Of a DNA stretch of 64,000 nt, positions 15,293 through 58,014 are shown in pieces. The notes beneath the pieces were generated by a model that ran no database searches, was not told the origin of the DNA, and saw only the letters and a program-made list of their open reading frames with translations. Position numbers and translations under genes: made by a program. This DNA comes from Heterodontus francisci. Lineage: Eukaryota. Positions within the stretch are counted from its first letter, which is position 1. Every line of letters starts with the position of its first letter. The stretch is from NCBI RefSeq assembly GCF_036365525.1, contig NC_090393.1, positions 54,514,488-54,578,487 on the forward strand, in the 5' to 3' direction.

Positions 15293-15451
15293 TTACTGTG
15301 TAAGCCATCGTGCCTTAGCTGTTGTATTGGGCGCCTTCCTTTCTATCAGTGGATCAGAATAAACGATCTCCAAATTTACATTCTGCGGAGTTTCCTTCAT
15401 TCTTGCAGGGGACAACGTCGCATATGTTATTCTATCCGATCTTGAAGTGTC
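15293..15451 (-). CDS. Exon 4 (terminal, ITIM-bearing cytoplasmic tail) of the IgSF receptor
   Basis: Acceptor ttggttcttcccag|, phase 0. Encodes DTSRSDRITYATLSPARMKETPQNVNLEIVYSDPLIERKAPNTTAKARWLTQ*. ITYATL fits the ITIM consensus (I/V/L/S-x-Y-x-x-L/V); IVYSDP lies 21 residues later. Confidence 0.8.
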   Translation of the reverse strand, partial: DTSRSDRITYATLSPARMKETPQNVNLEIVYSDPLIERKAPNTTAKARWLTQ

Positions 15452-15692
15452 CTGGGAAGAACCAATAGAACGCGTTAACTATTCGTGCTAGAAAGACCTA
15501 CTGGCGATCATAAGTGTCTTAGATATAGTCTGAAATTGTCTCTGTAAGATATTGTAATGTTAATTATTTTGCATCATTAAAATATAACATGAGTGTTGAA
15601 GATACAATAATTACAACATTAGAAAAGCCACCACAAGGAAGTTTGGTCTACACAGCACAAGGCAGTTATAATTAAAATATTTATTTTTATTC

Positions 15693-15961
15693 ATTTAGAG
15701 ATACAGCACTGAAACAGGCCCTTCGGCCCACCGAGTCTGTGCCGACCAACAACCACCCAATTATACTAACCCTGCAGTAATCCCATATTCCCTACCACCT
15801 ACCTACACTCGGGGAAATTTATCATGCCAATTTACCGATCACCTGCAAGTTTTTGTGGGAGGAAACCGGAGCACCCGGCGAAAACCCACGCGGTCAGAGG
15901 GAGTGCCCAGAATTGAACCCGGGTCCCTGGAGCTATGAGGCTGCTAACCACTGTACCACCC
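15693..15961 (-). mobile_element. V-SINE (HE1-like), internally deleted
   Basis: Same family as 12937-13285, with deletions. Confidence 0.8.
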
Positions 15962-16013
15962 AGAGTTTTCTCCTGATGGAGATGCACAACACCGCAGTGA
16001 TAAAGGCGTTTGA

Positions 16014-16089
16014 CAAAGAGCAGGGACTTGAACCCCTCCCCGACCCTCAGATTAAAAGTCTGATGCTCTACCGCCTGAGCTATCCAGGC
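16014..16089 (-). pseudogene. tRNA-Lys(UUU) pseudogene in intron 3 of the receptor gene
   Basis: Minus strand reads GCCTGGATAGCTCAGGCGGTAGAGCATCAGACTTTTAATCTGAGGGTC-GGGGAGGG-GTTCAAGTCCCTGCTC. This matches vertebrate tRNA-Lys-TTT but has an insertion before the T arm and a broken 3' acceptor strand. Confidence 0.85.
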
Positions 16090-17058
16090 TCAGCTGTTAT
16101 AATTGAATTCAACACAGGACTAACAATTGAGATATACATTGTACACTTCTGGCCTCAAGCCTCCCGCTTTCTCTCGCTGACTCAGCACTTAGTTTTTCTT
16201 ATTTTCTCTTTCTATTTTATCCATACTACCTCCTCTGAGGCTTCCTATCTTGTATCTTCTCAGTTGCCAATATTCCATTAACAAGCACAGGTCCCTGCCT
16301 ACACAGTCCACGTTTTGACATTGAGACACGCTGCAATGTCCGACCCGAACGCCCGAATGCGATTTCTCAGTGGTTTTCACTGAGAGTTCGGGCTGTGGAT
16401 CGGGACAAACTCTGCGGAAATTACTGGTGTAGAACTCCTTCACTCGTTCAATTTCCCTTCCTTATACAATCTTCACCCTTTTAAAGCCCAACATTGTCCG
16501 CATAACAACACGTTTCTTTACCCACCGACAGTGACCATCTGATCTAGCCAGCGAGTTTGTACCCCAGCACACGTATCAAACTTTAATCTATTCCCCATGA
16601 AGCACTCTGTAAAATTCTGACATTCCGAGAGATGCGATATAAATAAAAATAGAAACTGTAATCTTCCGTGTTGGGGTCGCCTACCACGATTTACTGTTTT
16701 ATCTCGTCTTCATAGAATCATAGTCTTGCAATTTATTTTTCTCATTTTTAGGTGCTCTTTCGCACCATGGTTCGTGATCCTTCACAATGTTTTCCCGTGA
16801 TAAATCTTAAAATCAAAGATTGCGGGATTTGATCCTAACATGATTCTGTTTTAATTAAATATGTCACGTTTGAAAGCAAAAACATGTTTGAAAAATACGA
16901 AAGAATGAAAGCAATGACCAGTGACTATTGTTAAATCTTAACAAAAACATTCATTACATAGTATGTTTTTCGCTTGTACATCAGACTAAAATCTAAATTA
17001 TGAACAGTGCAGGCATGGCATCATCGTGATAAACATAATCTTATTACAGGTACAGTAC

Positions 17059-17108
17059 CTCTGGGATGGTATCGGTAGTCGAAGCTCTGTATTCAACTAA
17101 TCGCTTCC
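17059..17108 (-). CDS. Exon 3 (membrane-proximal cytoplasmic) of the IgSF receptor
   Basis: Acceptor ttgttttgtcattccag| and weaker donor GAG|gtactg; 50 nt, phase 1-0. Encodes (R)KRLVEYRASTTDTIPE and supplies the phase change needed to join the TM exon to the ITIM exon. Confidence 0.65.
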
Positions 17109-17885
17109 CTGGAATGACAAAACAACCGAAAATTATTGCACGCGAAACTTTTACGTTATGCCGAATGTGTAACTGTAATTCAATTTATTCTCGGGCAAAA
17201 CAGAAGATTGTATTGTACCGGCCTGCAACGTGAGCATGTGCCAGCCTCAGTATTATCTTTTTGCAAAATTCTAAAGAATTATTGCTAACAGAATCTTTTA
17301 AACTGGAAATGCAAAAGCGTTTTATGTAGAATAGGAGTCAAAACATGGAGCAACACTACTTTGGGACCTGAATCACAGATCAGTTTTCCACAATTGTAAA
17401 CGCTACACTACTACGCAACAGTGAGTTGTGAACTGCAGCCTATGGGAGGACAGTTAAGCTGAATAACGCGAGAGTTGTCTTATAGTTGTATGAGAATCAA
17501 TAAGATTTGCAAGATGTGAAGGTTCAATGTTTTCAACAAACCGTTGTATAAGAAAGCTATTGAATAAGAAAGCTACTGAAGCTAATCTAGCTTTTATGCC
17601 AGCGGTATAAAACTGTAATGTATACACGCATGTGGAGAGAGGAGCTTATCTACTCCACACGTGTAACAAGATTAGAGATAACAGACCCCAGCACATCATA
17701 CACAGGACAACTATAGCAGCGTTTAATCACATAGTCTGTAACGCTCTCCACACTAAGAGACCTAACTCAGTCTAGCTGTACTACACGCTGCAATATTAGG
17801 CATAACTTGAGCATATGGGGAATTGAGAATACATATAGTTGCGAACCATTGGAGCAGATGGTCTAAGGACACCATATGGAATTCA

Positions 17886-18201
17886 ATGGCGCAGTGGTTA
17901 GCACCGCAGCCTCACAGCTCCAGGGACCCGGGTTCGATTCTGGGTACTGCCTGTGTGGAGTTTGCAAGTTCTCCCTGTGTCTGCGTGGGTTTCCTCCGGG
18001 TGCTCCGGTTTCCTCCCACATCTAAAAGACTTGCAGGTGATAGGTAAATTGGCTGTTGTAAATTGCCCCTAGTGTAGGTAGGTGGTAGGGAATATGGGAT
18101 TACTGTAGGGTTAGTATAAATGGGCGGTTGTTGGTCGGCACAGACTCGGTGGGCCGAAGGGCCTGTTTCATTGCTGTATCTCTAAATAAAAAATAAATAA
18201 A
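17886..18201 (+). mobile_element. V-SINE (HE1-like)
   Basis: TGGCGCAGTGGTTAGCACC...V-core...CTGTATCTCTAAATAAA tail. Confidence 0.9.
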
Positions 18202-18927
18202 TGTAATCGATATTCGAACAGAAAGCATGAAACATTTACACCACTAATCGTTCTTATTTTATCAGGCTGGTGAAAATCAAAGTGCCAGGTAAACACATGG
18301 GCGCGGGATACAAATGTCCCTTATGGGGAAAACAACACCGGATTTCCAAGGAGTGACCAGGCCTAGTTTTAAAACATATATCAAAATAACACAATTGTAA
18401 ACATGGTAAACGAGGAGATATGTCACAAAAGGGCATCCATACACAATCGTTAAAAAAGAAAAGTGCTTGAGTGTAATAAAACAGAGAAAGTGCTGGAAAT
18501 ACTCAGCAGGTCAGGCAGCATCTGTGGAGACAGAAGCAGAGTTAACCCTGAAACGTTAACTCTGTTCTCTCCACAGATACTACCGGCATTTCAGATTTCC
18601 AGCATCCGTAGTATTTTACTTTGATTTAGTGCTTGAGTTTGTTCATTTCAATTAAAGTGAAGCCAGTACTAGGTTACATCTAGAGCTGTTTTATAATCCG
18701 GCAGAACAAGCTGTTTTAAGCTTGTTACATCACTGTATAGAGTCCGTTCACTGAACCTTCACAACATACATTATTATACGTTGGACTGAGAGTTGAGAAA
18801 ACTTTGCTGATAATGCCCAGTCTCAGGGTATTACGTTTTGGAGAGCTCAACATAGCTTTATTTAGAAAAGGAACATTGGGTCAAAATCTAGGTCTTAAAC
18901 TGCGGACAGACGGGTATAATAAAATGT

Positions 18928-19145
18928 AATAAAAACAAGAAATGCTGGAACCACTCAGCAGGTCTGGCAGCATCTGTGGAAAGAGAAGCAGAGTTAACGT
19001 TTCGGGTCAGTGACCGATGAAGGGTCACTGACCCGAAACGTTAACTCTGCTACTCTTTCCACAGATGCTGCCAGACCTGCTGAGTGGCTCCAGCATTTCT
19101 TGTTTTTATTTCTGATTTCCAGCATCCGCAGTATTTTGCTTTTAT
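18928..19145. repeat. Fold-back (inverted) Penelope-like terminal repeat
   Basis: 88-bp arms (18928-19015 and 19023-19110, 2 mismatches), 7-nt loop, flanking 15-bp duplication TATAATAAAATGTAA. Related copies lie near 14445-14800, 18470-18630, 27795-27960, 53703-53800, 57070-57172, 58080-58180, 58697-58870 and 60785-61100. Confidence 0.75.
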
Positions 19146-19806
19146 TATAATAAAATGTAAGCAGGTTTGGACTGCGGTCCGAGCATTAGAAGTCACGAGT
19201 ACATTTTATACCGCAGAACAGCTGAACAGACTCCCAGAAAAAAGATAACAAAAACAATTAAAAAGGACACATGTCTGCTTAGGATAGAGGTGACTTGAGT
19301 GAGGATATTACTATTATGCTATAATACCCGATAGTTGATTCGCTTTTGTAAGCAAGGAAATGCCATCACTGGTTAAATAGTGGACATGACAATCGATTGA
19401 TAATTAAAGTCTGAGTAGATTACTTTTAGGTAAGAGTCCAGGGAGAATTTTTTTAAAAGAAAATATCTCAGCGTTGTAGAAAAGCTGGTCTTCATATGTT
19501 AGATTGATTTTTTCTTATAATTAATGTTACAAAAACTCTAGACCAATTGCAAACGTTCACATATTTTAGTTAACATATTTAAGTACATATATAACACATT
19601 ACGGCGCAGGTACAATGGGCCGAATGGCTTCTTTTATGCAGTATCTTTCTTTATGATTCTTATTACTTTATGAACAAGAACAGCAACAGAGTCTAAATTT
19701 GTCTTGTTTTTGATAAAATACATTATATTAATTTGAGAATATTTTATATTTATAGTGAAAGTAGGATAAATGCATTTAACATAGGTAATGAAAGTGTAAT
19801 ACTCAC

Positions 19807-19911
19807 TTTTCGCTTTCCAGCTGTACAGAGTTAAGAGTAAAATAACGAATATCACCAGTAGACACAGTAGCAGATAATGCCACGAATCTTTGCTTTTCGA
19901 GGGATCAGATG
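19807..19911 (-). CDS. Exon 2 (stalk + transmembrane) of the IgSF receptor
   Basis: Acceptor tttcctttaaag| and donor A|gtgagt; 105 nt, phase 1-1, in frame with the V exon. Encodes (A)SDPSKSKDSWHYLLLCLLVIFVILLLTLYSWKAK, a hydrophobic TM without charged residues followed by basic stop-transfer residues. Confidence 0.85.
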
Positions 19912-21437
19912 CTTTAAAGGAAATTTGTATATATTTAGTACGAATGAAAGTGCAAATCTCTGCCAAAATATACGTCCTTTACTATGATTTTAAGTGAAAA
20001 CAAGTAAAAGGTAAATGATTATTATTGCAGATCTCACTGTGAGATAACCCCGGGATGTAGATGTTTTTATGGGTTCCTTTCACTTTATAACCTTTAATTA
20101 AACGACTAAATCACCGATTAAACGCGGGACCTTGATATTCGGCAGAGGTTTTAGCCTGAATTCCCACTCTCGGCTATTTCAGGGAAAGTGTTATTTTAAA
20201 ATTAAAAGGTTAAAATATCTTCTGAAACAGCCAATAGACGAATTTCCAGAAAGTTGAATTCATCAGCTAATATCCCAGGACATGATTGGTCGATCGGTAT
20301 TTAAAATTCTGAGTTTGTTGCCGATTGTCGGCCTTCATTACACAGGGGTGGCAACTAATAATACTGTGCAGGATCTCGGTGATATAATTTAGTGGAAATG
20401 TGAATTCTGGCTGGTTTGCGGCACGACTTGCTTGTGCCGGTTGTGCAGCAACAATCAGAAAAGAAAGTCAAAAATGACCTTAGTAAAACCCAACATTCCA
20501 AGTGAAGTTCAGCAAAGTCCACAAAATTATGGATTAATTATATTTCTGCTTGTTTACAACCATGATCTGCACAGACATTCTCCTTCACCATAAGTAAAGG
20601 TATAAATCTGGAGAGCACGACATCCTCCTGACGTTGTCAGTCCAAGTCACAGATGTACTGCTGTGGATTAAACAGTATTCACCAACACAGTTACTCTCCA
20701 AGCATAAAATCAAGTCCATGCGTCGCAGTCTTGACATTCAAAATTCACATGAATCTAAAAGATGGTGAAAATCCTAGTTGCGAAGTAATATTGAGAAGAA
20801 CAAAGTAATTGTTGTAAAGACGCTCTCTTATTTATTTACAACTTTGGAAATATTGAGCATCAATGTAATAACGATCAGGAAAATAACGTTTAGATTAGGA
20901 TGCCGCTGTCACGCTTACCCGAATCTACATCCCCAACTGTGCCAATTCCTGAACCGATCCGAATTAAAATTGCATTCAGGTTATCCACAGTGATTCATTG
21001 AAACCAGATGCATCGATATTTTTGTACCAATTTTCTCTTCCTCCTCCCTCGAAGGTCTTGTTTGTTGCCGTTTGTAGCGTTCCATCGATACCCAGCGCCC
21101 ATCTTCACCTCTTCCAAGTGAACACTCTCAGCCAGCCTTGCTGTTTCGCCCAGTCCGCTCCCGCCCCATCCGCCCACACCCTCACACTTTGCACCAAGAA
21201 TCACGGACACTATATAATGACCAGAAGCAGCACTCCTGCTGATTGCCCCTTTCTAGCCGGTGGGCTTGGCAAATTGTGGCTTCTCATCTATAGAACCCGA
21301 CTGAGATCATGGAACTCAGTTTAACTGTTTTCATTTTCATATCACTAATAAACACTTTTTGGTCACGAATGCAATAGCTGACAGCTTGAATTACAATTAA
21401 TAGCGCCACACTTTGAAACTTAAATAATATAACCTAC

Positions 21438-21855
21438 CTGTCACTAGCAATCGGCTTCCATTCCCCTTCAAATCTTCAGTGCTTGGTGCACTCAAAATCA
21501 TCAATTCGCAAAAATATGTGCCGCTGTCTTCCTGCTGAAGGTGCGTTATTGTTAACTGGTTTATGTTCCGTTCATGGTCTTTTGTATTGACCAGTCGAAT
21601 TGACTGCTTGTTCTTGCAGCTGTCCATGTAATAAACATACGTCTGATTCTTCTGCTTTCTTGGTTGATGAAGCCAGTTGATTACAAAGTCGCGAGTTTTA
21701 TCAACAGAATAGGCACAGGTCAGGTTCGCTGTCCCTCCTTCAGACACAGTGAGAGATTCTGGGTTCTGTTCAACCCAAATCCCTTCGGCAACAGTCAGCA
21801 CCCACTCTGTGCAGGCTATAGACATCTGTATCAATATTAATGTAATGATGTCCAT
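21438..21855 (-). CDS. Exon 1 (putative leader + VJ-type IgSF V domain) of a single-V inhibitory receptor
   Basis: Encodes MDIITLILIQMSIACTEWVLTVAEG-IWVEQNPESLTVSEGGTANLTC...FVINW...LTITHLQQEDSGTYFC...GNGSRLLVT. It has the B-strand Cys, C-strand Trp, D-x-G-x-Y-x-C motif and J-like G-x-G-S-x-L-x-V G strand. It ends at a phase-1 donor (ACA G|gtaggt, intron from 21437). The start is uncertain because phase-1 acceptors inside the leader would also allow a separate upstream leader exon. Confidence 0.88.
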
Positions 21856-22055
21856 GTTAACGAGACAACACCGGGAAACATCCGTATTAAAGTTTGTAAG
21901 AGTCAACAGGTTGAGACATTCTATTACTGTTCATCACTCACACTGCTCGGCGCGGATGTGGGCTGGTGGAGTTTGCAGATACCAACACGCCGCTTGCAAG
22001 TTCCGCGTGGGATTCACAGCCCAATTCCCCCACAGCCCAATTCTGCGGCTCAGTA

Positions 22056-22373
22056 TTAGTTTAGTTTAGAGATACAGCACCGAGTCTGTGCCGACCATCA
22101 ACCACCCATTTATACTAATCCCATATTCCTACCACATCCCCACCTGTCCCTATATTTCCCTACCACCTACCTACACTAGGGGCAATTGCTAATGGCCAAT
22201 TTACCTAGCAACCTGCAAGTCTTTGGCATGTAGGAGGAAACCGGAGCACCCGGAGGAAACCCACGCAGACACAGGGAGAACTTGCAAACTCCGCACAGGC
22301 AGTACCCAGAATTGAACTCGGGTCTCTGGAGCTGTGAGGCTGCGGTGCGAACCACTGCGCCACTGTGCCGCCC
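22056..22373 (-). mobile_element. V-SINE (HE1-like), ~200 bp upstream of the receptor ATG
   Basis: Full head and V-core with a (CTAAA)n tail. Confidence 0.9.
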
Positions 22374-23659
22374 ATTCTGAGACAAGCTGTCGCCCACCAA
22401 AAGTAGCAACGTTCAACCCAGCGATTACCATTCCTGGCGATTTCAGTGCGGAAATAATAATTTAAGACTTTAAGACCTTCCTCGCTGTTATCCACATTTC
22501 GGCCTGGTTGGTGTCACATCACTGAAGGGTTCCAATTTGTCCAAACCTGCCTGCTCCGAAAAGTAGTGGAGAAAAATCGAAAAAACGTGTATATAAATTC
22601 AGTCCAATTAAAGTTGCAAATGTCCATAATTGTCGGCAAATATAAAATCAAATGCTGCGAGTAATGAAAACTGCAAAAGTCCACCTGATGCAATAGATGA
22701 ATAAATAAACATTGCCAAAAAGAAACTGGCGGCAGATAAGCCCAGAAAGGTGGTTTGAAACTTTCACTGCCATGACAGCACTTTTCTACTCTCGGTTCCT
22801 GTTCGTCACACAGGCAGCAATGCAGGGTTAATGTTGATCGCACGGGCACACAGAGCAGCTGGTACAAGAAGCCAACTTCGTGAATATGTTTGTCTTCACA
22901 AAAATTGTGAAAAAGTGACCTATAACTGATTTGGATTCTCCGCGTCCCTCGACTCCCTGACTAATTAAACGCACGATTCCTCTCTACGTAGGATCGCGGT
23001 GTAAACAATAATCCTCAATTTGTGAATTTTTTGCGGTTCTGACCGTAAATCATGCAGGGCACTGTCGTGTTGTGGCAGCAGAAGTGACATGAGGCTTTCG
23101 AATTGGTGCAAAGGAAATTTACCACCCTTTGCTCGTCTGGCCTACATATCGAGTCCAGCCCCATATCGATATGGTTTGCAATGAACTGCCCGCTCAAGTG
23201 GCCTCACAAACCACCCATTCTCTCTGGTCAATTAGGGTGGATAATAAATCCTGGCCTTGTCAGCAACACAACCGAGAATAAACACAAATATATTAAATTG
23301 AGACTTAGGGCAAAGGATTATTCTGTTAAAGGTTTTGTTTGAGTAACTTTTTACTAAAAGAGTTGTTCAACTTGGCCACTGTAGCGATCACGGAAACGAA
23401 GACCTAGTGCCCTAACGGTAATAACATTTTGGTTATAAACTTCACTCCTAGTTTTTTCAAAATATACGCTTTAATGATGGCAGGCTGAATCACTTTTTGG
23501 CTTTGAATGTTGTTAAGTTCGAGTCACTTTTTCACGAAAATTTCTTCCTGTGGATGTAAGGAATGGAAGCAACGGGAAGAAACACCTTCGATTTCAGGCA
23601 ACCAAATCGAGTGTCAAATCCTCCCAGGTCAGGTATAGCACCTCTAGTTTCAGAGTTTT

Positions 23660-26891: not shown

Positions 26892-27289
26892 CAGGGGTCA
26901 CCAACATGTCGATCATAAGCTACTGATCGCTTGCATCGGCCTTTGAGTAGCTTGCATAAAGCTCCTAACAATGCAGTCCAATTGCCTACATCATCCTGCC
27001 AGCATTAATCCGCACATATGCATCCTGACATCACTGCGCACCGATGTCACCATGCACTGACATCACTAAGTACTGATGTCACAACAGGACAACCAAGCAA
27101 AAAGGATCAGGGGAGCAGGCGAGGGAATAAGCGGAGGGGAGGGAGTGAGGAGGAGGGAGTGAGCAGGGGGAGAGTGTGCGGGGGAGGAGGAGCGACTGGA
27201 GGGGGAGGAGCAAATGTTCGGGGTGGCACGTGATATTGTTCCTCATTAGTAGAAGTAGCTCTCAGTAAAGAAAAGGTTGGCAACCCCTG
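26892..27289. mobile_element. hAT-Charlie-like MITE
   Basis: TIRs CAGGGGTCACCAAC / GTTGGCAACCCCTG; 8-bp TSD CTCTAGCC/CCCTAGCC. Confidence 0.8.
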
Positions 27290-27508
27290 CCCTAGCCACT
27301 GACTCCTCTTCTCCCTTTTCCAAATGGTGGTATTTGCAAACTAACTTACAATACTCCCAACACCATTGTCCCAGTCATTAGTGAAGATTGTGAAAAGTAA
27401 TGAGCCTAGGAATGATCCAAGCTGAACCATATCTGTTAACTACAATGTTTTGGCTGCTGGTTTGGAGCCAATTCCTAATCCAGCCTTTGAAATTTCTACA
27501 GATATTAC

Positions 27509-30500: not shown

Positions 30501-30531
30501 GTGACGTCGAGGGGCCAGTAAAATTCAGCCC
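27509..30531 (-). mobile_element. Decayed PIF/Harbinger transposon with both TIRs
   Basis: TIRs AGGCTGAATTTTATTGG / CCAGTAAAATTCAGCCC and TSD TAC/TAC. Frameshifted HARBI1-like transposase (...DLCGVTQSAVHRCIKDVTNAL...DCAHVAIRPP) at ~28600-29500. Confidence 0.8.
30036..30188. repeat. Four-unit minisatellite (AATGCAGAGTGAGACCCCTG core)
   Basis: Four imperfect ~37-50-bp tandem units in the Harbinger subterminal region. Confidence 0.8.
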
Positions 30532-40725: not shown

Positions 40726-43700
40726 TCTTTTGGGCCTCCTTATCTCGAGAGACAATGGATACGCGCCTGGAGGTGGTCAGTGGTTTGTGAAGCAGCGCCT
40801 GGAGTGGCTATAAAGGCCAATTCTGGAGTGACAGGCTCTTCCACAGGTGCTGCAGAGAAATTTGTTTGTTGGGGCTGTTGCACAGTTGGCTCTCCCCTTG
40901 CGCCTCTGTCTTTTTTCCTGCCAACTACTAAGTCTCTTCGACTCGCCACAATTTAGCCCTGTCTTTATGGCTGCCCGCCAGCTCTGGCGAATGCTGGCAA
41001 CTGACTCCCACGACTTGTGATCAATGTCACACGATTTCATGTCGCGTTTGCAGACGTCTTTATAACGGAGACATGGACGGCCGGTGGGTCTGATACCAGT
41101 GGCGAGCTCGCTGTACAATGTGTCTTTGGGGATCCTGCCATCTTCCATGCGGCTCACATGGCCAAGCCATCTCAAGCGCCGCTGACTCAGTAGTGTGTAT
41201 AAGCTGGGGGTGTTGGCCGCTTCAAGGACTTCTGTGTTGGAGATATAGTCCTGCCACCTGATGCCAAGTATTCTCCGAAGGCAGCGAAGATGGAATGAAT
41301 TGAGACGTCGCTCTTGGCTGGCATACGTTGTCCAGGCCTCGCTGCCGTAGAGCAAGGTACTGAGGACACAGGCCTGATACACTCGGACTTTTGTGTTCCG
41401 TGTCAGTGCGCCATTTTCCCACACTCTCTTGGCCAGTCTGGACATAGCAGTGGAAGCCTTACCCATGCGCTTGTTGATTTCTGCATCTAGAGACAGGTTA
41501 CTGGTGATAGTTGAGCCTAGGTAGGTGAACTCTTGAACCACTTCCAGAGCGTGGTCGCCAATATTGATGGATGGAGCATTTCTGACATCCTGCCCCATGA
41601 TGTTCGTTTTCTTGAGGCTGATGGTTAGGCCAAATTCATTGCAGGCAGACGCAAACCTGTCGATGAGACTCTGCAGGCATTCTTCAGTGTGAGATGTTAA
41701 AGCAGCATCGTCAGCAAAGAGGAATTCTCTGATGAGGACTTTCCGTACTTTGGACTTCGCTCTTAGACGGGCAAGGTTGAACAACCTGCCCCCTGATCTT
41801 GTGTGGAGGAAAATTCCTTCTTCAGAGGATTTGAACGCATGTGAAAGCAGCAGGGAGAAGAAAATTCCAAAAAGTGTGGGTGCGAGAACACAGCCCTGTT
41901 TCACACCACTCAGGATAGGAAAGGGCTCTGATGAGGAGCCACCATGTTGAATTGTGCCTTTCATATTGTCATGGAATGAGGTGATGATACTTAGTAGCTT
42001 TGGTGGACATCCGATCTTTTCTAGTAGTCTGAAGAGACCACGTCTGCTGACGAGGTCAAAGGCTTTGGTGAGATCAATGAAAGCAATGTAGAGGGGCATC
42101 TGTTGTTCACGGCATTTCTCCTGTATCTGACGAAGGGAGAACAGCATGTCAATAGTCGATCTCTCTGCACGAAAGCCACACTGTGCCTCAGGGTAGACGC
42201 GCTCGGCCAGCTTCTGGAGCCTGTTCAGAGCGACTCGAGCAAAGACTTTCCCCACTATGCTGAGCAGGGAGATTCCACGGTAGTTGTTGCAGTCACCGCG
42301 GTCACCTTTGTTTTTATAGAGGGTGATGATGTTGGCATCGCGCATGTCCTGGGGTACTGCTCCCTCGTCCCAGCACAGGCATAGCAGTTCATGTAGTGCT
42401 GAGAGTATAGCAGGCTTGGCACTCTTGATTATTTCAGGGGTAATGCTGTCCTTCCCAGGGGCTTTTCCGCTGGCTAGGGAATCAATGGCATCACTGAGTT
42501 CCGATTTGGTTGGCTGTATGTCCAGCTCATCCATGACTGGTAGAGGCTGGGCTGCATTGAGGGCAGTCTCAGTGACAGCATTCTCCCTGGAGTACAGTTC
42601 TAGGTAGTGCTCAACCCAGCGGTCCATCTGTTTGCGTTGGTCAGTGATTATGTCCCCCGATTTAGATTTGAGGGGGGTGATCTTCTTGATGGTTGGCCCA
42701 AGAGCTCTCTTCATGCCATCATACATTCCTCTGATGTTTCCGGTGTCTGAGGCCAGCTGAATATGACTGCATAGGTGTTGCCAGTAGTCGTTTGCGCAAC
42801 GCCTAGCTGTTCTTTGTGCAGTACTTCTGGCTGCTTTAAGTGCTGCGGATGTTAAATCGCTGGGGGCTTTCTTGTAGTTCAAAAGTGCAATGCGCTTAGC
42901 GGCTATGACAGGTTCCAGCTCTTCATTATGAGATTGAAACCAGTCTGCATTTCTCTTCGCACTTTTGCCGTAGGTGGTCAAAGCTGACTCATAGATGGCG
43001 TCTCTGATGTGGGCCCACTTGGTCTCAGCATCCCCTGTGGGAGTGTTTTGAAGGGCTGTTACAAGTGAATTTAGAAATTTTTGTAACAGCTGTGGGTGAG
43101 AAATTCTGCTCGTGTTGATGCGCGGGTGGCCCTTCTGCTTGGAATGATGCAACTTCTTTGGTCTGAGTCTAACCTTGCTGCACACCAGGGAGTGGTCGGT
43201 GTCGCAGTCCGCACTGTGGAAGCTGCGTGTGATTTGAACAATGTTTAAGGCGGCTCGCCTTGTGACAATGAGGTCTAGCTGGTGCCAACGACGTGATCTT
43301 GGGTGCCTCCATGAAACCTGGTGACAGGGTTTAGTGTGAAAGAACGAGTTGGTGATGCAGAGGTTATGATAGGTACACAACTCAAGCAGTCTCTGCCCGT
43401 TCTCATTCATCCTTCCAACGCCATAGCGCCCAAGGCAGGAGGGCCATGAGTCATGGTCGGCCCCAACCCTGGCATTAAAGTCCCCCAGCAGGAATAGGTG
43501 TTCGGTGTTGGGGATGCTGCTAATGATGTTATGGAGTTGTTCATAGAACTGGTCTTTAGCTTCAGGTGCGGAACAGAGTGTTGGAGCATAGATGCTGAGT
43601 AGGTGTACTGGACCAGAGGTGGTGAGCAGTCGGATGGACAGTATGCGTTCCGAGCCATTTGAGGGAGGCTCTATCATGCTGAGCAAGGAGTTTCTGATGG

Positions 43701-44449
43701 CGAAGCCCACTCCATGCTGTCTTGGTTCTTCAGGATCCCTGCCCTGCCAGAAGAAGGTGTAGTCTTGCTCTGCTAGAGAGCCACTCGCGGGGAGGCGAGT
43801 CTCCTGAAGTGCTGCAATGTCCACATTGAGTCTACTGAGCTCGTTGTTAATGATGGCGGTCTTCCGAGAATCGTTGATTTGTGTAAGGTCTTCCGACAGG
43901 CCAGGACACATAGTTCTGACGTTCCAGCTTGCAAAGCGAAGGGCTGGTACCTTCTTTCCTTTTTTCATGTTGTTTGGTGCGGTGTATCAGTCCACCTTTC
44001 GGGCAATGACCCTGAGCTCCAAGCACCCATTGAAGCAGGCAGACTGTGGCGGGACAGAACCTTATTGACCGGGGGCTGCCCGGTTTGAGGCGGGCGGTAG
44101 CTGTCCAGTGAGGTGCAATGACCTCTCCCACCGACAAAGGCAACCCGTGGCGCCCAGTTTCTACGCCAATTTATCTGGACTTATAACCCGTAACTGCTGC
44201 CTTCCGTGTTGTTTCAGTCGCTGTGAGGCAACTATGGAGTGACCTCTCCATGGCGCATGCCTGGGCAAATTTATGGAGGTTGAGAGTTGCCCAGTCGTCA
44301 AAACCCCCCTCTCGGCCTTTCTGGTGGGGTCCAAAGGAGTGCAGGACACGACGTTTGGCACCAGTATGGCTGCAGGAACTGCCGGAAACATGCCAAAGGT
44401 GACACATGACCGCCTACGGGGTTCCGCTCCGGATTTTCTGTTAGGGTTA
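40726..44449 (-). mobile_element. Near full-length RTE LINE inserted into an older CR1, with a 67-bp TSD
   Basis: Identical 67-bp direct repeats at 40659-40725 and 44450-44516. Short 3' UTR ending ...GGAGGCCCAAAAGA and ~480 bp of 5' UTR. Confidence 0.92.
40777..43968 (-). CDS. RTE-clade LINE ORF (AP endonuclease + reverse transcriptase + C-terminal C2H2-like zinc finger), uninterrupted, 1063 aa
   Basis: EN motifs WNVRT, LQET, GDFNA, TDH; RT motifs QCGFR, FIDLTKAFD, GVKQGCVLAPTLF, FADD, YLGS; RTE-type RRLRWLGHV; C-terminal CxxCGRxCxSRIGLxSH. No stops or frameshifts. Confidence 0.95.
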   Translation of the reverse strand: MKKGKKVPALRFASWNVRTMCPGLSEDLTQINDSRKTAIINNELSRLNVDIAALQETRLPASGSLAEQDYTFFWQGRDPEEPRQHGVGFAIRNSLLSMIEPPSNGSERILSIRLLTTSGPVHLLSIYAPTLCSAPEAKDQFYEQLHNIISSIPNTEHLFLLGDFNARVGADHDSWPSCLGRYGVGRMNENGQRLLELCTYHNLCITNSFFHTKPCHQVSWRHPRSRRWHQLDLIVTRRAALNIVQITRSFHSADCDTDHSLVCSKVRLRPKKLHHSKQKGHPRINTSRISHPQLLQKFLNSLVTALQNTPTGDAETKWAHIRDAIYESALTTYGKSAKRNADWFQSHNEELEPVIAAKRIALLNYKKAPSDLTSAALKAARSTAQRTARRCANDYWQHLCSHIQLASDTGNIRGMYDGMKRALGPTIKKITPLKSKSGDIITDQRKQMDRWVEHYLELYSRENAVTETALNAAQPLPVMDELDIQPTKSELSDAIDSLASGKAPGKDSITPEIIKSAKPAILSALHELLCLCWDEGAVPQDMRDANIITLYKNKGDRGDCNNYRGISLLSIVGKVFARVALNRLQKLAERVYPEAQCGFRAERSTIDMLFSLRQIQEKCREQQMPLYIAFIDLTKAFDLVSRRGLFRLLEKIGCPPKLLSIITSFHDNMKGTIQHGGSSSEPFPILSGVKQGCVLAPTLFGIFFSLLLSHAFKSSEEGIFLHTRSGGRLFNLARLRAKSKVRKVLIREFLFADDAALTSHTEECLQSLIDRFASACNEFGLTISLKKTNIMGQDVRNAPSINIGDHALEVVQEFTYLGSTITSNLSLDAEINKRMGKASTAMSRLAKRVWENGALTRNTKVRVYQACVLSTLLYGSEAWTTYASQERRLNSFHLRCLRRILGIRWQDYISNTEVLEAANTPSLYTLLSQRRLRWLGHVSRMEDGRIPKDTLYSELATGIRPTGRPCLRYKDVCKRDMKSCDIDHKSWESVASIRQSWRAAIKTGLNCGESKRLSSWQEKRQRRKGRANCATAPTNKFLCSTCGRACHSRIGLYSHSRRCFTNH

Positions 44450-44516
44450 GAGGCAGGTATACAGTCTGGTTCTCCAGGGGTCAGTACAAGGACTAATTCT
44501 TTTCATGATATATATT

Positions 44517-51045: not shown

Positions 51046-51314
51046 TGTACTGCCCACCACTATTTGACCCATAAAGTCACTCAAAGCATTGCTTCAAAAT
51101 TCCAATCATATGCTGGATGCTTGTCCTGTTTGAGGCATGGACTGCATTAGATCTGTGCGGGCCTTTGTGTGTGTATGTATGTGCATTACACAGGTAGCAA
51201 AAGGTATCTTTGGTTACCCATTAGCCAGTCCTGCAGTGTTCATGGATAATTAAAAACTGGTGGCATGGAAGACTGATGTAAAGGAAAGCACCTACAAGGT
51301 ACAATATCAAGTTC

Positions 51315-51960
51315 TGTGATCAAGTCAGAGAGATTACGAGGCTTAACTAAGATATACAAAGTTAATACTTAACAAAGTCAATAGATATGCAGCAACACTC
51401 TGCACTGGTTCTTTCTTCTGAGCTCGGTGGGACATGGACATCTCTCCTTCTTCTCCTCTTGCTGTGTTCTGTTGACCTTGGTCTATCTTCTCCTTCTAAG
51501 TGTGCCAAAAATGTCCCGCAATTCCATTTTTATCCTTCTTGGGGTACTAGGAACTTACCATATTAGGATACTTGGAACAATTCATAACCTAATTGGTCTA
51601 GGTTGACATCATTGTTAGATCCTAGTTAATGGTTCAACATAGTTTACAGACGTTTCCCGTTTCTTTCTATTTTCACAAGGATTCTAAAGGTCAAATTTTT
51701 GCTGATACCAACCATTTTTACAATTCTGCTGTTTCACATTTATCTCCTCCTGAAAGGAGTGCTGTGGTCTTCAACCCATCTCTCCCATTGTTCTTACCCA
51801 AAGGATAAAACATAGCCTTGAAAAATCATTTCATAATAAAACAAGCATTAGCTCAAACAGACTTCAATATATTAGTGTACATAGCATATGATTAGTCCTA
51901 TTATTTTAGCGTTTCATATTTTTCACAAATGTAAAATATGTCACAGTTCATAGCCCCACA
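51315..51960 (-). mobile_element. Possible solo LTR
   Basis: TGTG...CACA termini, flanks AGTTC/AGTGC (4/5 TSD match), AT-rich and non-coding. Confidence 0.4.
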
Positions 51961-54129
51961 AGTGCACCACTCCAGCTGCATGACTTCTCCTTTCCATTTG
52001 GCTACGTGCAGCTTTCCACACATATCTCTCAACATGACCTTTTGACATATTTCAGTGAAGATGACTATGATCCTTTTCAGCCCAGTCTTGACATTACATT
52101 TAGCCTTTGAGAAAAAAGTATTGCAAAGTTATTCATTAAAGCAAGCCATGAAAATGCTCTAAACCTTACAGAGGGACCAGTTAAATGCCGGAGAGCTGCT
52201 TCAGGATGGCGCACTGAAGTTGTCCTGCTGCCAGGAAAGTTTCTCAGTGGAGGGAATGGACTCACGGAGGCCAGCAGCCAAGTTGAATCAGTAATGGCCC
52301 AATTAAAGACTACTTTCCTGGTCCACTGGCATTCTCCCGCCACTTGTGAAGACTGCCAGCTGTATTGAGGCAGCCTCCCAGTGCCTTCCTGGAGGCTCCA
52401 TGGTGCAGATAGGGGGCCACCGGCAGCAAATTACACCCCAGTGGCCCCAGCACTGCCGCTGGACAAGTTTCCTCTTCGTTCTCCGGGCCCTGTCTCTCTG
52501 GCTCGCGTAAAAAATTATTTAATGCCCGCCCTTCCAACGGCATCTCAAAGTCCTCGTGTTCTCCTTGCTGCCTCAACAGCAGCCACCTCTGGCTCTTTAT
52601 TACCTCCTGGCAATATGGGGGCGGGGAGGTAGGAAAGAGCCCCGCCTCCTCCACAAAATCCAGCCCAGTGAGGATTCCGTTTGTTTCTGGTAAACTACTT
52701 TGAAAACGCTGGTTGAGTGGTCCCTCAATGGCCTTAATTGGCATCCCGCCAATGCTGGGAGGGGGAGGTTGCCGTCCACGCACCCAACCCACCCTGGGGA
52801 AGAGCGGCCGGAGTCGGGAACATGTCGGGGAGTCAGCCCCGCACTTCGCTTTCACAATTTCTATGGCCTCCACATCTCCAAAACTGCATTCACGAGGCTG
52901 GGAAAATTCAGTCCATGAATTCTTTGACCCTAAAGTTTCCTTAATCTGGAAGTCAAAAGTGTTACGGGCCTATTTTCAGCTTGACCTCACAAAAGTCCAG
53001 CCAACTGTGTCTGAAGCGCATCTGCTCATAGCAGGCTGGATCACAGTGAGAGGTCAGAGCGCCGTTATCTGGACTTTGCAAACTCATGCAGGCAAATACA
53101 GTCGTTTGGAGGCATTGTCCCTACGGACTGATCCCAAGATGGTTCTGCCCACTACTTGTACGATGAAATTTCCATCACAAGGTCAGTGCCTTCATCTTAT
53201 GATGCCATCTCGCTCTCTGCCTGCCGGATCCCCTTTTTCAGTGGGGCTGCCAGCCACCCCTCTGGCTCTCCTGTGTCTGTGTGCCAATTCCAAATTGGCA
53301 GCCTCCTGTAAAATTAAGCTGCGGGCAGCGCTCTGAAATGCATTGGGACCCAGAAATGGTCTCGCTGTTGGATTCCCGCTGCCTGCGGGAAAATTAAGCT
53401 CCATAAATCTTGGAAGAAGCGCTCAGTTGTATAACTGGAAACTATATTTTAAAAGTTTCTTCCAGTCAGTATTTCTAGTTAAACCACAAAGCATTTTGGG
53501 AATGGAAGAATCAAGAAATAACTTGCATCTATCGTGATGTTCACGACTTCAGAATGTGGCCAAGCGCTTCACCGCCAATGAGGTATGTTTGAACTGTAGT
53601 CAATGGTATAGTGTGAGGAAACCTGGCAGCCAATTTCCATATAGCCAACTCCCAGAAACAAAAATTAGATAAATTACGAGACTATCTGTTTTTAGTGGTA
53701 ACAAAGCAAAATTCTATGGATGGTGAAAATCTGAAATAAAAACAGAAAATGCTGGAAATACTCAGCAGGTCAGGCAGCATCTGTGAAGAGAGGAACAGAG
53801 ATAATGGGGGGAATTTTCCCAGCGTGTTTGGAGATAGGGGCTGGGAAAGTTGCAGGTTCCCCCACATGTTCCCACTTCCTCACACGTTTCCCGGAAGCTG
53901 CTTCAGCGCAGTAATAGCAACCCCAACAGCAGTAGAAAGTCAATTAAGGCTTATCAGCAACCAATTAGCAGCAATTTTTCCGCGTAGATGAGATTTTACC
54001 AACATCATATGGGACCCCTGCTTGTGTCTGCAGTTCGTCAGTGAAGAAAAGTGAAGAAAAAAAATGTGTCTAGAGAAGGTATAGGTGGAAAAGCAGAATC
54101 ATTAACAACAGCTGCCATCCAAAACCAAA

Positions 54130-55020
54130 AACCAAAAACACAAAACAGAATGGGGGCAGAGGTTATGATCTGAAATTGTCAAACTCAATGCTGAGTCCAG
54201 AGGGTTGTAAAGTGCTAATCAAAGATGTGCTTACGTTGAGCTCCACTGGAACACTGTAGTAGGTCGAGGACAGAAAGGACAGAGCAGGAGTGGAGTAGAG
54301 AATTAAAATTACAGACATCTGGAAGCTCAGGGTCATGCTTGTGAACTGAATGGAGGTGTTCTGCAAAGTGGTCACTCAATCTATGTTTAATCTCCCCAGT
54401 TTAGAGGAAACTGCATCATGTGCAGTTAATACAGTACACTAAACTGAAAGAAATACAAGTAAATCATTGTTTCAACAGGGAGAAGTGTTTGGTGGCTTGG
54501 ACAGTGAGAAGGGAGGATGTAAAAGGGCGTGTGTTGCATCTCCTGGGCTTGTATGGGAAGGTGCTGTGGGAAGGGGTGGGGGGTTTTGGGGATAATAGAG
54601 GAGTGGACAGGGTGAAATGATTAGTTCTTTGGGGATGCTGAAAGGGGAGGGGAAGGGAAGATGCGTTGGGTTGTGGCATTATGCTGGAGGTGGCTGCAAT
54701 GGCGGAGGCTGATGCATTGAATGTGAAGGCTGGAGAGGTGCAAGGTGAGGGCAAGGGGTATCCTATTGTGGTTTTCGGAGTGGGAGGGGCTGGGGTGGGG
54801 AAGGGATGAGAGCAGAAGTGTGGACAATCAAATGGACATGGACCTTGTCAACCATGGCGGAGGGCGAAATCCTTATTTAAGGAAAAAGGAATACATATCT
54901 GAATCACTGGTATGGAAGGTTGCACCATCAGAAAAGGTGCAATGGAAGATGAGTGAATGGAATGGAGTCCTTCAGGGAGTGGAATATGAGGAAGTTTAGT
55001 TGAGGTAGCTGTGGGAGTCA
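54130..55020 (-). mobile_element. Decayed Penelope-like element (GIY-YIG endonuclease region)
   Basis: Frameshifted minus-strand translation includes RIPLALT..., PRRCNT..., FTCISFSLVYCINC.*CSFL*TGEIKHRLSDHFAEHL, a GIY-YIG-like segment. Confidence 0.7.
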
Positions 55021-55023
55021 CTG

Positions 55024-56960
55024 GCCTGGTGACTTATCAACTTTAAGTACAGCCAGCCTATCTAAAACCTCATCTTTATCAATCTTTAGCCCAACCAGTG
55101 TCTGAACTACCTCCTCTTTCGCTATGACTTGTGCAGCATCTTCTTCCTTGGTAAAGAAAGATGCAAAGTACTCATTTAGTACCACTCCCTACCTCCATGT
55201 GTAAATCCTCTTTTAGATCCCTAATCTGACCCACTCCTCCTTTTAGCACCCTTTTACTATTTATATGCCTACAGAAGACTTTTGCATTCCCTTTTTTGTG
55301 AGCTGCCAGTCTCTTATACTCTCTCTTTGCTTCTCTTATTTGTTTTTCACTTTGCCTCTGTACCTTCTATATTCAGCCTGGTTCTCACTTGTGCTATCCA
55401 CTTGACATCTGTCAAATGCACCCTTTTTCTGCTTTATTTTACTGTCTATCTCTTTCTTCATCCAGGCATCTCCAGATTTGTTTGGCTTACCTTTCGCCTT
55501 TGTAGGAATGTACATTGACTGCACCCAGATTATCTCCTCTTTAAAGGCAGCCAATTGTTTTGCCACAGTTTTGCCTGCCAATCTTTGACTTCAATTTACC
55601 TGAGCCAAATTCATTCTCAACCCACTGAAATTGCCCCTCTCCCAATTAATTATTTTTACTCTGGATTGCCCTATTTCATAGCCAGTCTAAACCTTATGAT
55701 ACTATGAACACTGTCCTCTAAATGTTCCTCTACTGACATTTGATCCACTTGACCCATCTTATTCCCCAGAACCAGATCCAGCAATGCCTCCTTCATCATT
55801 GGACTGGAAATGTACTGATGTAGAAAATTCTCCTAAACACACTTTATAAACTCTTCTCTTTTTCTGTCCTTTGTACTATTAATATCCCAGTCTATATTAG
55901 GATAATTAAAGTCCCCCATAAATCGTTCACCTCTCTGTAATTCCCCTGCAAACTTGTTCCTCTATATCTTTCCCACTTTGGTTGCTTATAGAGTACACCA
56001 AGCAATGTACTGGTACCTTGATTGTTTCTTAGCTCTAACCAAATAGATTGTATCCTTGACCCATTTAGGACATCCTTTCTCTCCAGTACTGTAATGTTCT
56101 CTTCAATCAATACTGCTATCCCTCCTCTTTTCTTTCCTTCCTTATTTTTCCTGAACATCTTTTATCCGGGAATATTCAGTACCCAGTTCTCCCCTTTTTT
56201 GAGCCAGGTCTTCATTGTCACCATGACATCATTTTTTCAAGTGGCTATCTGCACCTGCAGCTCACTAACCTTATTAACCACACTCAACATATTCACATAT
56301 ATACACAGTAAATCTAATTTAGACTCTATTACATTCCTTGTTACTCTGACCGCATCTAATACCTTGCTATTTCCTACTCTCGTGCTATTTGGCTCTCCCA
56401 ATTCTCTGAGGTTTTCCTCTCTAATATGACCTCCTGGTTCTCACACCCCTGCCAATTTAGTTTAGACCCTCCTCAATCCAACCCACTAGTAAATCACCTC
56501 TCAAGGGCATTGGGCCCGGCTGTGTTCAGGTGCAACCTGTACGGTCGGTACAGGTTCCCCAGAATCAGTCTCTCTGTCACAGGAATCTAAAGCCCTCCCT
56601 CTTGCACAATCTTTTTCAGCCATGCATCCAACTGCTCTATCCTCCTATTTCTAAATTCACTTACACATGATACTGGGAGTAATCTGAAGATTACCTTTCA
56701 GATCCTGCTTGCTACTTTCTTTCATAGCTCCCTAAATTTTGCCTGCAGGACCTCATCCCTCTTCCTACCTATGTCATTGCCATGGATATGGACCACGACC
56801 GTTAGTTGTTTACCCCCACCCCGTAGTACTCTGCATCTGCTCAGTGACCTCCTTGACCCTGACACCAGTGAGGGAACATACCATTCAGAATTCATGTTAG
56901 CAGCTGCAGAAATGCCTGTTGGCTCCCTTAACTATTGAATCCCCTATCACTGTTGCTTTT
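55024..56960 (-). mobile_element. Decayed CR1 LINE (EN region and upstream)
   Basis: KRGGIAVLIEENI...SIWLELRN...LLGVLY (ORF 55892..56158). Confidence 0.75.
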
Positions 56961-57685
56961 CCAATCGCTCTTGCCTTCCACCCTCTCAGAGACCTTTCCT
57001 TTTGTTCTATCTGCCCTTCCCCTTCCCTTGCCTGTATGCTTGCTTCTAACCAGTTATATCTCTAACTTCTTTTGCAGTTCTGATGAAATGTCATTGACCT
57101 GAAATGTCAACTCTGTTTCTCTGTACACAGATGCAGCTTGACTTGCTGAGTATTCCCAGCATTTTCTATTTTAACAGTGTTGATTGAGTACGAAATGTTG
57201 GCCAGGGCTTTGGAAGAAACCCCTGTTCTTTTTGGAACGGTGCTGTTGGACCTTTTACATCCAACTAAGTGGGCTGCACTTTAAAAGTCCGCCACCGAAG
57301 TAGGTGGTGGGCATAGAAAATGTGCCCCACCTGGACAGGCATTGCATCACAGAGCCGCCACAATTTCAAACGTGGCGGCTCATTTGCATAGCTGCATTGC
57401 CCGCCCCCTATGATTACATAGAGGGGTGGGCGAGCCATTGCAGGCAAAGGCGTCCGGTGCCAAAGCGCAGGCACCAGTGCTATTTTTAAAGGGATTACAT
57501 CCCTTAATGGAGATTTTAAAATTAAAGGGCCAGGTCAGTTCAATGATCAAAAAAAAAAGAATTAAATTGCCATTAACTTCATTTTCACACCCCTTAATGG
57601 CATTTCAAAACATTCCTGCCCTTCTTCCACCACCCCGGGCACTTTGTTTATGGGATGTGGGCGTCACTAGGTAGGCCAGAGTTTA

Positions 57686-58014
57686 TCAGATACCACTGGA
57701 TCTCGTGATACTTGTTTGAAGTGGGTTTGCCAGAGTTCCATGTTTAACCCTGCAGGAATAAAGCTCGTGTGCGTTCCACTCGGAGGTGGACTGGGTCAGA
57801 TAACTGCTCACACTATACGTCTGGCCAGAGTCCTGTAAAGTTGAACTGATCTGGACGCCCGCCTCTCTGACTTTGCCGTCCATACTCCACACAACTTTCA
57901 TAGAATCCGGGTAAAAATTATTTGCCAAACACACCAGGGTCACCGTGTTGGCTGCTGCAATCTGCTCCTTTGTGGGAGGAAGAAGCAACACTGTGGGATT
58001 GGCTGGCTGACAAC
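57686..58014 (-). CDS. IGLC: Immunoglobulin light chain constant (C1-set) exon, lambda-like; possibly a pseudogene
   Basis: Acceptor cattttccttttag|, phase 1. Encodes xCQPANPTVLLLPPTKEQI...TVTLVCLANNFYP...VVW..DG...YSVSSYLT...EWNAHELYSCRVKH...NPLQTSITRSSGI*, with C1-set hallmarks (LVC, FYP, W, YSCxVxH) and a light-chain-length terminus. The terminal Cys is replaced by Gly. Confidence 0.9.

What the first reader, a model, noticed from the sequence alone, without database searches (positions are those of the whole stretch)
15293..58014. Non-rearranging VJ receptor lies directly downstream of an Ig light-chain C exon on the same strand
Seen: the light-chain C exon and the receptor's first exon are ~36 kb apart, co-oriented, with no other recognisable gene between them. 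Known: shark IgL genes are clustered, lambda-type clusters are germline VJ-joined, and a 'primordial immune complex' linking antigen receptors with NKp30-like VJ genes has been proposed. Inference: this linkage may be a retained ancestral arrangement. Alternatively it may place an inhibitory receptor under light-chain enhancer control, giving B-cell expression.
Basis: inference. Interest (0 to 1): 0.72.

Follow-up and report, generated by a model that had tools for sequence, protein, structure and literature searches.

The report
Shark checkpoint receptor beside lambda locus
In this shark genome a single-copy membrane receptor gene with a CD28-like domain and tyrosine motifs that likely make it an immune brake sits at the edge of the lambda antibody light-chain region, and database records suggest the two have stayed neighbours from chimaeras to sharks; the light-chain piece next to it here has lost its variable part and is likely decaying.

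Summary
A six-exon VJ-TM-tyrosine-motif receptor (22,497 to 14,853, minus strand) lies 35-36 kb downstream of an Ig lambda C exon (58,014 to 57,686, minus), with only repeats recognised between them. It has no VJ upstream, lacks the inter-chain Cys and departs at 8 of 40 conserved columns. It is the remnant of an old lambda sub-lineage that is whole in six other cartilaginous-fish proteins. The linkage looks conserved: lambda genes share the receptor's contig length in 5 of 5 species, and in elephant shark the receptor orthologue and this same lambda gene have consecutive accessions. The locus is not MHC-linked, and the receptor V is no closer to lambda than to kappa, VH or TCR. It sits inside the TMEM233/PRKAB1-PXN/RPLP0-PLA2G1B block, which makes it a candidate for CD28HL3, reported as undetected in cartilaginous fish. 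The CD28HL3 loop motif is not strictly met. Enhancer sharing is untested. Verdict: a new CD28-type, likely inhibitory receptor with old microsynteny, not a shown relic of the primordial complex.

The parts
22477..22497 (-). Upstream coding exon of isoform X2 (MWITARK), phase-0 GT donor
   Evidence: P0001 start maps here; a database gene model, not verified by reads
21438..21855 (-). Leader plus germline VJ-type IgV exon (YFC-x6-AP-x6-GNG; no RSS), phase-1 donor
   Evidence: single copy in the genome, next hit E 2.4e-4
19807..19911 (-). Stalk and transmembrane exon; no Arg/Lys/Asp/Glu inside the hydrophobic stretch
   Evidence: helix 143-180 in the AlphaFold model
17059..17108 (-). Cytoplasmic exon 1
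15314..15451 (-). Cytoplasmic exon 2 with ITYATL (ITIM consensus) and IVYSDP; weak GC donor at 15,313; read-through stop at 15,295-15,293
14853..14987 (-).
40777..43986 (-). LINE-type ORF (endonuclease + reverse transcriptase, 1069 aa) in the intergenic interval; not part of the system
57686..58014 (-). Orphan Ig lambda C exon, open frame and intact acceptor, no VJ, terminal Cys replaced by Gly; likely decaying remnant of an old lambda sub-lineage
58835..60656 (.). Locally unrepeated, CpG-rich stretch upstream of the orphan C with two exact octamers (59,156 and 59,434, minus); candidate leftover regulatory DNA, function untested
   Evidence: its one match to another lambda cluster is a genome-wide repeat

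Best explanation
The gene is a single-copy, six-exon membrane receptor with one germline VJ-type Ig domain and cytoplasmic tyrosine motifs; it is likely an inhibitory CD28-type receptor (candidate shark counterpart of CD28HL3), and it likely has sat at the edge of the lambda locus since the chimaera-shark split through ordinary conserved gene order, while the adjacent C exon has no VJ and is likely a decaying remnant. Shown: exon anatomy, single copy, orthologues in six other cartilaginous fishes, position between RPLP0/PXN and the lambda clusters, MHC on another contig, loss of the VJ next to the C exon. Inferred mechanism: the V domain binds a B7-type ligand through its proline-bearing FG loop, the tail tyrosines are phosphorylated by a Src-family kinase and recruit SHP-1/SHP-2, and this damps lymphocyte activation (from what is known of PD-1 and ITIM receptors; not tested). 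Inferred history: a VJ-C gene of one old lambda sub-lineage was the receptor's direct neighbour; in this genome its leader-VJ part was deleted and the C exon has drifted since.
For: Orthologues at 40-65% identity in Carcharodon (two genes), Cetorhinus, Chiloscyllium, Heptranchias, Pristis and Callorhinchus; they form one clade (92/88, 91/87). Lambda chains carry the same longest-contig length as the receptor in 5 of 5 species with such data. Callorhinchus receptor XP_007906700.1 and lambda XP_007906701.1 are consecutive, and that lambda's five best VJ matches among 105 are the five other members of the sub-lineage (57-60% against 51% or less). In Chiloscyllium punctatum the two are 30 accessions apart. 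The window C is 73% and 65% identical to that sub-lineage's C against 50-58% to intact C exons on its own contig, and groups with it at 85/87 with a long end branch, 0.28 against 0.04-0.10 for the five shark members. It departs at 8 of 40 columns conserved in 117 other chains (median 1; sub-lineage members 1-3) and lacks the terminal Cys found in 114 of 117. Best V match to the sub-lineage in the genome is 49%. Markers on C23: TMEM233-like 51.92, PRKAB-like 52.03, PXN 54.34-54.40, RPLP0 54.42, PLA2G1B-like 57.78-57.84 Mb; prkab1, tmem233 and pla2g1b define the CD28HL3 block, and that gene was not found in Chondrichthyes (PMC11599192). A profile of 14 other CD28H/NCR3/CD7-like V domains scores the receptor 86 bits and lambda VJ 30-33 bits, and finds no other such exon in 1.42 Mb scanned, including 400 kb around each marker end. 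CD28H-, CD28HL2- and CD28X-like exons lie on C36, C1 and C6 by their loop motifs. The tail resembles sterlet CD28HL3 by eye: two motifs 55 against 61 residues apart, with similar flanks. Nearest Atlas clusters are PD-1 (0.96).
Against: The published CD28HL3 loop motif YxCxxxxx[IAVL]P is not met: position 6 is S/N/D/T in all 8 proteins, and the window has AP where the other 7 have PP. The markers are 2.5 and 3.3 Mb away, while the fish block spans 40-165 kb, and about 4.5 Mb of the interval was not scanned. No bony-fish CD28HL3 sequence could be put in a tree; the receptor clade does not join the CD28 family with support. The 14 profile sequences were themselves found with the receptor's profile, which inflates the 86 bits. 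Cross-species linkage rests on contig lengths and accession order, not on DNA I read; orientation and distance in other species are unknown. In sterlet and gar lambda lies by IFT81 (PMC5985310), which here is 23 Mb away, so adjacency outside Chondrichthyes is not shown. The orphan C still has an open frame and an intact acceptor. The Callorhinchus model has no tyrosine-motif tail (it may be truncated).
Confidence: 0.62

Rival explanations
1. The adjacency is kept by selection: lambda enhancers drive the receptor in B cells, giving a light-chain-coupled inhibitory checkpoint; the DNA at 59-60.6 kb would survive as that enhancer after the VJ was lost.
For: Adjacency appears conserved from chimaera to sharks. 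58.8-60.7 kb is locally unrepeated and CpG-rich, with two exact octamers; 3 of the window's 4 octamers lie within 1.5 kb of the C exon.
Against: Four octamers in 64 kb is below the shuffled mean of 5.4; the local cluster was noticed after the fact. No exact octamer lies near the receptor's 5' end, whereas the lambda promoters examined carry one. The stretch has no homology to introns or 5' flanks of five other lambda clusters beyond repeats. Long-lived gene order is common in slowly evolving shark genomes (general knowledge), so conservation alone shows no function.
Confidence: 0.15
2. The receptor is a relic of the unrearranged VJ gene from which antigen receptors (or lambda) arose, kept beside lambda as part of a primordial immune complex.
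For: V and J are joined in one exon with a GxG strand. Against a profile of 106 lambda VJ the six orthologues score 36.5-53.5 bits, the 13 other non-rearranging V domains 4-38. PMC12227049 argues for VJ relics near antigen-receptor loci.
Against: The likeness is generic: mean scores of the window V are 84-94 to lambda, 100 to kappa, 110 to VH, 94 to TCR-type V, much like the NCR3-like V of C29. The clade lies outside the antigen-receptor clade (90/86). No MHC class I on C23. There is no C1 domain, unlike UrIg or PRARP (recalled). C23 carries 12q24/22q-type markers (human positions partly, partly recalled).
Confidence: 0.08
3. The receptor is a tenth CD28-type family member limited to cartilaginous fish, unrelated to CD28HL3 by descent, that happens to lie on the same ancestral chromosome arm.
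For: Own loop signature (L-[SNDT]-PP) unlike the EIP/[IAVL]P of CD28H-like genes; up to four tail tyrosine motifs; no bony-vertebrate single-V hit above about 56 bits in 1.84 billion representatives.
Against: It lies between the markers that define CD28HL3, the only ITIM-type slot left empty in Chondrichthyes; CD28HL3 sequences diverge fast even among bony fish, so a weak search score is expected. This rival changes the name, not the mechanism.
Confidence: 0.3
4. The lone C exon is functional as a V-less, surrogate-type light chain.
For: Open frame, both domain cysteines and the acceptor are kept. A V-less light-chain gene is described in sterlet (PMC5985310).
Against: Excess changes at conserved columns, loss of the heavy-chain-linking Cys, no AATAAA/ATTAAA within 1.2 kb after the stop; no leader or J-like exon recognised upstream; orthologues are ordinary VJ-C chains; two frameshifted C remnants lie 9-12 kb upstream.
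Confidence: 0.07

Closest known systems
CD28HL3 of bichir, sterlet, gar and otophysan fish (PMC11599192)
   Same: One V domain, 14 residues from the second Cys to GxG, TM, two ITIM-like motifs at similar spacing (55 against 61 in sterlet), position among prkab1/tmem233/pla2g1b markers.
   Different: Loop motif not met (polar residue before PP); three to four tail tyrosines; markers megabases away with the lambda locus in between; reported as not detected in Chondrichthyes.
PD-1 (PDCD1)
   Same: V-stalk-TM-tyrosine-motif layout; nearest Atlas clusters (0.96); the Callorhinchus orthologue is auto-named PD-1-like; the white shark first motif fits TxYxxV.
   Different: PD-1 lacks loop prolines and GxG; its shark orthologues are other accessions with other flanking markers.
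NKp30/NCR3
   Same: Non-rearranging VJ exon with a GxG strand; some shark NCR3-like proteins carry ITIM-like motifs (P0146, P0051).
   Different: About 29% identity; shorter loop in NCR3; the NCR3-like V is on the MHC contig C29, this gene on C23.
Cartilaginous-fish Ig lambda (type II/NS3) germline-joined clusters
   Same: The C exon is lambda-type and borders about ten VJ-C clusters over 54.63-55.95 Mb.
   Different: It has no VJ, no terminal Cys, faces away from the next cluster, and belongs to a separate sub-lineage that predates the chimaera-shark split.
UrIg/UrIg2 and PRARP (non-rearranging antigen-receptor-like genes)
   Same: Non-rearranging VJ exon next to immune loci.
   Different: Those carry C1 domains and lie in the MHC or the IgH/TCR complex (UrIg; PRARP: recalled); this gene has none and lies elsewhere.

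Membership tests
CD28 family (broad, as in PMC11599192) | Single extracellular IgV domain, TM, cytoplasmic tail | tested here: met
CD28 family (broad, as in PMC11599192) | Proline(s) in the FG/CDR3 loop followed by GxG | tested here: met
   PP in 7 of 8 proteins, AP in the window; GxG in 8 of 8
CD28 family (broad, as in PMC11599192) | Cytoplasmic tyrosine signalling motif | tested here: met
   three motifs in the window, 2-4 in five orthologues examined; none in the short Callorhinchus and P0002 models
CD28 family (broad, as in PMC11599192) | Groups with CD28-family V domains in a tree | tested here: inconclusive
   deep forks unresolved; profile score 86 bits against 30-33 for lambda, with selection bias
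CD28 family (broad, as in PMC11599192) | Binds a B7-family ligand | not testable with these tools
   no ligand identified
CD28HL3 | Loop motif YxCxxxxx[IAVL]P | tested here: not met
   position 6 is S/N/D/T in 8 of 8; hence called a candidate, not a member
CD28HL3 | ITIM pair in the tail | tested here: met
   ITYATL ... MLYSHL; compared by eye with sterlet and bichir rows
CD28HL3 | Synteny with prkab1, tmem233, pla2g1b | tested here: met
   lies between them, at megabase scale; markers named by Pfam family and position, not by reciprocal search
CD28HL3 | Clusters with bony-fish CD28HL3 | not testable with these tools
   those sequences were not returned by any search as usable proteins
NCR3/NKp30 | MHC linkage | tested here: not met
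   0 of 64 MHC class I matches on C23; NCR3-like V on C29
PD-1 | No loop prolines/GxG; ITIM then ITSM | tested here: not met
Functional Ig lambda cluster (for the C exon) | Joined VJ exon a few kb upstream on the same strand | tested here: not met
Functional Ig lambda cluster (for the C exon) | C-terminal Cys for the bond to the heavy chain | tested here: not met
   Gly here; Cys in the last four residues of 114 of 117 others
Functional Ig lambda cluster (for the C exon) | Open C1-set frame with splice acceptor | tested here: met
UrIg/PRARP-type antigen-receptor relics | VJ followed by C1 domain(s) | tested here: not met
   V is spliced to the TM exon

The most novel reading that the evidence does not exclude
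This is the missing cartilaginous-fish CD28HL3, and its 400-million-year adjacency to one particular lambda gene is functional: a PD-1-like brake wired to the lambda light-chain enhancers, marking an ancestral B-cell checkpoint that left the locus in bony vertebrates.
Probability: 0.12. Interest if true: 0.8.

Novelty: new member of a known kind. Interest (0 to 1): 0.5.

Why it matters
It names an unannotated, conserved ITIM-type receptor of sharks, rays and chimaeras. If it is CD28HL3, that gene dates to the jawed-vertebrate ancestor and the one gap in the published family table closes. It also points to an old lambda sub-lineage that stays next to the receptor and is being lost in this genome. 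The receptor-lambda pair gives a concrete locus for asking whether such neighbourhoods share regulation. It does not by itself add to the RAG-invasion or MHC-paralogon story.

Tried and rejected
RNA: no listed holder is on record as RNA (three runs of one sample, share of V-exon words 0.96, 0.96, 0.21; RNA is only a guess). On 57,180-58,065 one 48-letter contig fitted 31 bases and runs on unlike the window, most likely from another lambda C; the other two runs laid nothing. Neither result is used for or against expression. Splicing of the receptor was not checked on reads. A 34-base match between 59.1 kb and a lambda 5' flank looked like a shared element but has 143 matches genome-wide: rejected. 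Lambda-2 identity for the sub-lineage: not supported by anything tested; PMC5985310 found no lambda-2 in cartilaginous fish and the chains group with lambda. An 'invariant' light chain: rejected, the sub-lineage's chimaera-shark VJ identity (57-60%) is lower than that of 9 main-lineage holocephalan chains (65-74%). PDB sequence and fold searches gave only generic V domains; model mean pLDDT 54.6. GCN1 search was blank and uninformative. Non-lambda Ig loci by V sequence: C8 kappa-like, C46 sigma-2-like, C34 heavy chain/TCR (labels mine); their flanks were not examined. A second ITIM-type V gene, P0116, lies on C48 and so does not fit the block. The bacterial promoter scan and tRNA scan were irrelevant or blank. 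Not in print as far as these searches show; the library lacks most subscription papers, and Ohta 2019 (PMC6761025) was not held, so a mention there or in shark NCR3 papers cannot be excluded. Supplement S7 of PMC11599192 is a figure; only its text labels were visible, so gene order around cd28hl3 in fish is unseen.
Full report
Setting. The window is G000:C23:54,514,488-54,578,487 of a 6.0-Gb genome. The receptor protein is in the public collection letter for letter as 'uncharacterized protein', labelled Heterodontus francisci, on a contig of the same length.

Observation. The C exon (58,014-57,686, minus) is a C1-set domain. The receptor has a leader/VJ exon (21,855-21,438), a TM exon, and three cytoplasmic exons; its annotated 281-aa product ends at 14,853, not 15,293. 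The last exon is reached through a weak GC donor, so a read-through form ending at 15,293 may also exist; the last exon is conserved in orthologues. The interval is 59% locally repeated. Of the frames scanned there only a LINE passed a Pfam cut-off.

The C exon. It is the outermost C of the lambda locus (54.57-55.95 Mb). No VJ, J or RSS lies upstream on its strand in 105 kb; the first whole cluster begins at 54.632 Mb on the other strand, and two broken C pieces lie between. Its best relatives are not in this genome: they are whole VJ-C lambda chains of Mustelus (73%), Hemiscyllium/Chiloscyllium (65%), Stegostoma, Heptranchias, Rhincodon and Callorhinchus. The V of that sub-lineage has no match above 49% here and no remnant near the C. 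The window C has a long branch, 8 departures at 40 conserved columns (one of 117 others has as many, a divergent model with 27; two reptile hits and one earlier-numbered hit were left out), no terminal Cys and no poly(A) signal within 1.2 kb. I read it as a remnant under relaxed selection. The Callorhinchus C falls just outside the 85/87 group, so its membership rests on the VJ.

The receptor. It is single-copy. Orthologues were found in six other species covering galeomorph and squalomorph sharks, a ray and a chimaera. All have Cys-14 residues-GxG (13 in Callorhinchus) and a PP loop, AP in the window. Full-length tails carry three or four conserved tyrosine motifs; in the window one of the four has become Asp. 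The TM has no charged core residue. This is the anatomy of an inhibitory receptor of CD28/PD-1 type; the signalling steps are inferred. It is not CD28H, CD28HL2, CD28X or NCR3, whose look-alikes lie on C36, C1, C6 and C29 (motifs). It lies outside the antigen-receptor clade and is no nearer lambda than kappa, VH or TCR-type V, although it scores higher on a lambda profile than most other non-rearranging V domains tested.

Linkage in other species. I could not read their DNA. Indirect evidence: lambda chains and the receptor share the longest-contig length in Carcharodon, Cetorhinus, Chiloscyllium punctatum, Heptranchias and Pristis, 5 of 5 with data; this shows the same chromosome only. Closer: 30 accessions apart in C. 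punctatum and consecutive in Callorhinchus, where the neighbour is the orthologue of this very C exon's gene. That consecutive RefSeq numbers mean neighbouring genes is an inference from general practice. Mustelus, Hemiscyllium, Stegostoma and Rhincodon have the lambda gene but no receptor orthologue came back, so they are untested.

Chromosomal context. On the far side lie RPLP0 (54.42 Mb) and PXN (54.34-54.40 Mb); further out PRKAB-like and TMEM233-like hits at 52.03 and 51.92 Mb; beyond the lambda locus PLA2G1B-like genes at 57.8 Mb. PMC11599192 places the ITIM-bearing CD28HL3 of ray-finned fish in a block with prkab1, pla2g1b and tmem233, and did not detect it in Chondrichthyes. No other CD28-type V exon was found in 1.42 Mb scanned, about a quarter of the interval. 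The tail resembles sterlet CD28HL3 by eye, but the loop motif fails. I put orthology at about 55-60%. MHC class I is on C29. In gar both cd28hl3 and a lambda C pseudogene are on LG20, but that lambda lies by IFT81, which is 23 Mb away here.

Regulation. Two octamers lie in a CpG-rich stretch upstream of the orphan C; none lies at the receptor's 5' end; the window total is at chance level. No homology to other clusters' introns or flanks survives the repeat check. Enhancer sharing stays open.

Papers. PMC11599192: parts 2-5 of 6 of the text, supplements 4 and 7 whole, supplement 3 part 10 and single rows. PMC12227049: abstract, section 6, passages. PMC5985310 and PMC5192425: passages. PMC12151841: one reference-list passage. 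Ohta 2019 and the PRARP paper: recalled only. Human gene order in 12q24 is partly and partly recalled.

Verdict. Real and apparently old adjacency; a new, conserved, likely inhibitory CD28-type receptor and candidate CD28HL3; a decaying lambda C; no evidence for an MHC-linked primordial complex. Interest 0.5.

Noticed in passing
window 57,686-58,014 and P0157, P0158, P0167, P0168, P0170, P0262: An old, low-copy lambda sub-lineage with its own VJ (similar CDR1 from chimaera to sharks) is whole in six database proteins but V-less here; no ray, Carcharodon, Cetorhinus or Scyliorhinus member appeared among the 120 rows listed.
   Followed up: yes
L019-L020, window-scale about 66,760-67,180 and 69,520-70,470 (+): Two frameshifted lambda C remnants between the orphan C and the first whole cluster; one shares the orphan's 3' end pattern, hinting at past exchange.
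   Followed up: partly
P0002 and P0005 (Carcharodon): Two near-identical receptor genes with close locus numbers, suggesting a tandem duplication in white shark.
   Followed up: no
window 11,120-11,485 (-) and G000:C23:54,474,745-54,474,895 (-): A leader-like hydrophobic frame in a CpG-rich stretch and a TM-like frame with splice sites between the receptor and RPLP0; possibly another membrane gene, no Pfam hit for the first.
   Followed up: partly
G000:C48:6.27-7.40 Mb (L059-L061, L178): A cluster of V exons including P0116, another unnamed V-TM receptor with several tail tyrosine motifs.
   Followed up: no
P0068 (lungfish LOC122800284): Unnamed single-V protein whose loop fits the CD28HL3 motif and which scores among the best non-shark matches to the receptor V; position unknown.
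   Followed up: no
window 40,777-43,986 (-): Uninterrupted 1069-aa LINE ORF, apparently young; copies recur in flanking stretches.
   Followed up: no
window about 16,015-16,095 (-): tRNA-like sequence in receptor intron 4 seen by eye; ARAGORN calls no gene, probably a SINE head or pseudogene.
   Followed up: partly
L045:2,900-3,262 (+): MIF-domain match inside the PXN span, perhaps a retrocopy.
   Followed up: no
L018 (G000:C13:120.44 Mb): A V exon with a joined J-like end that groups with sigma-type light chains far from the Ig loci found.
   Followed up: no
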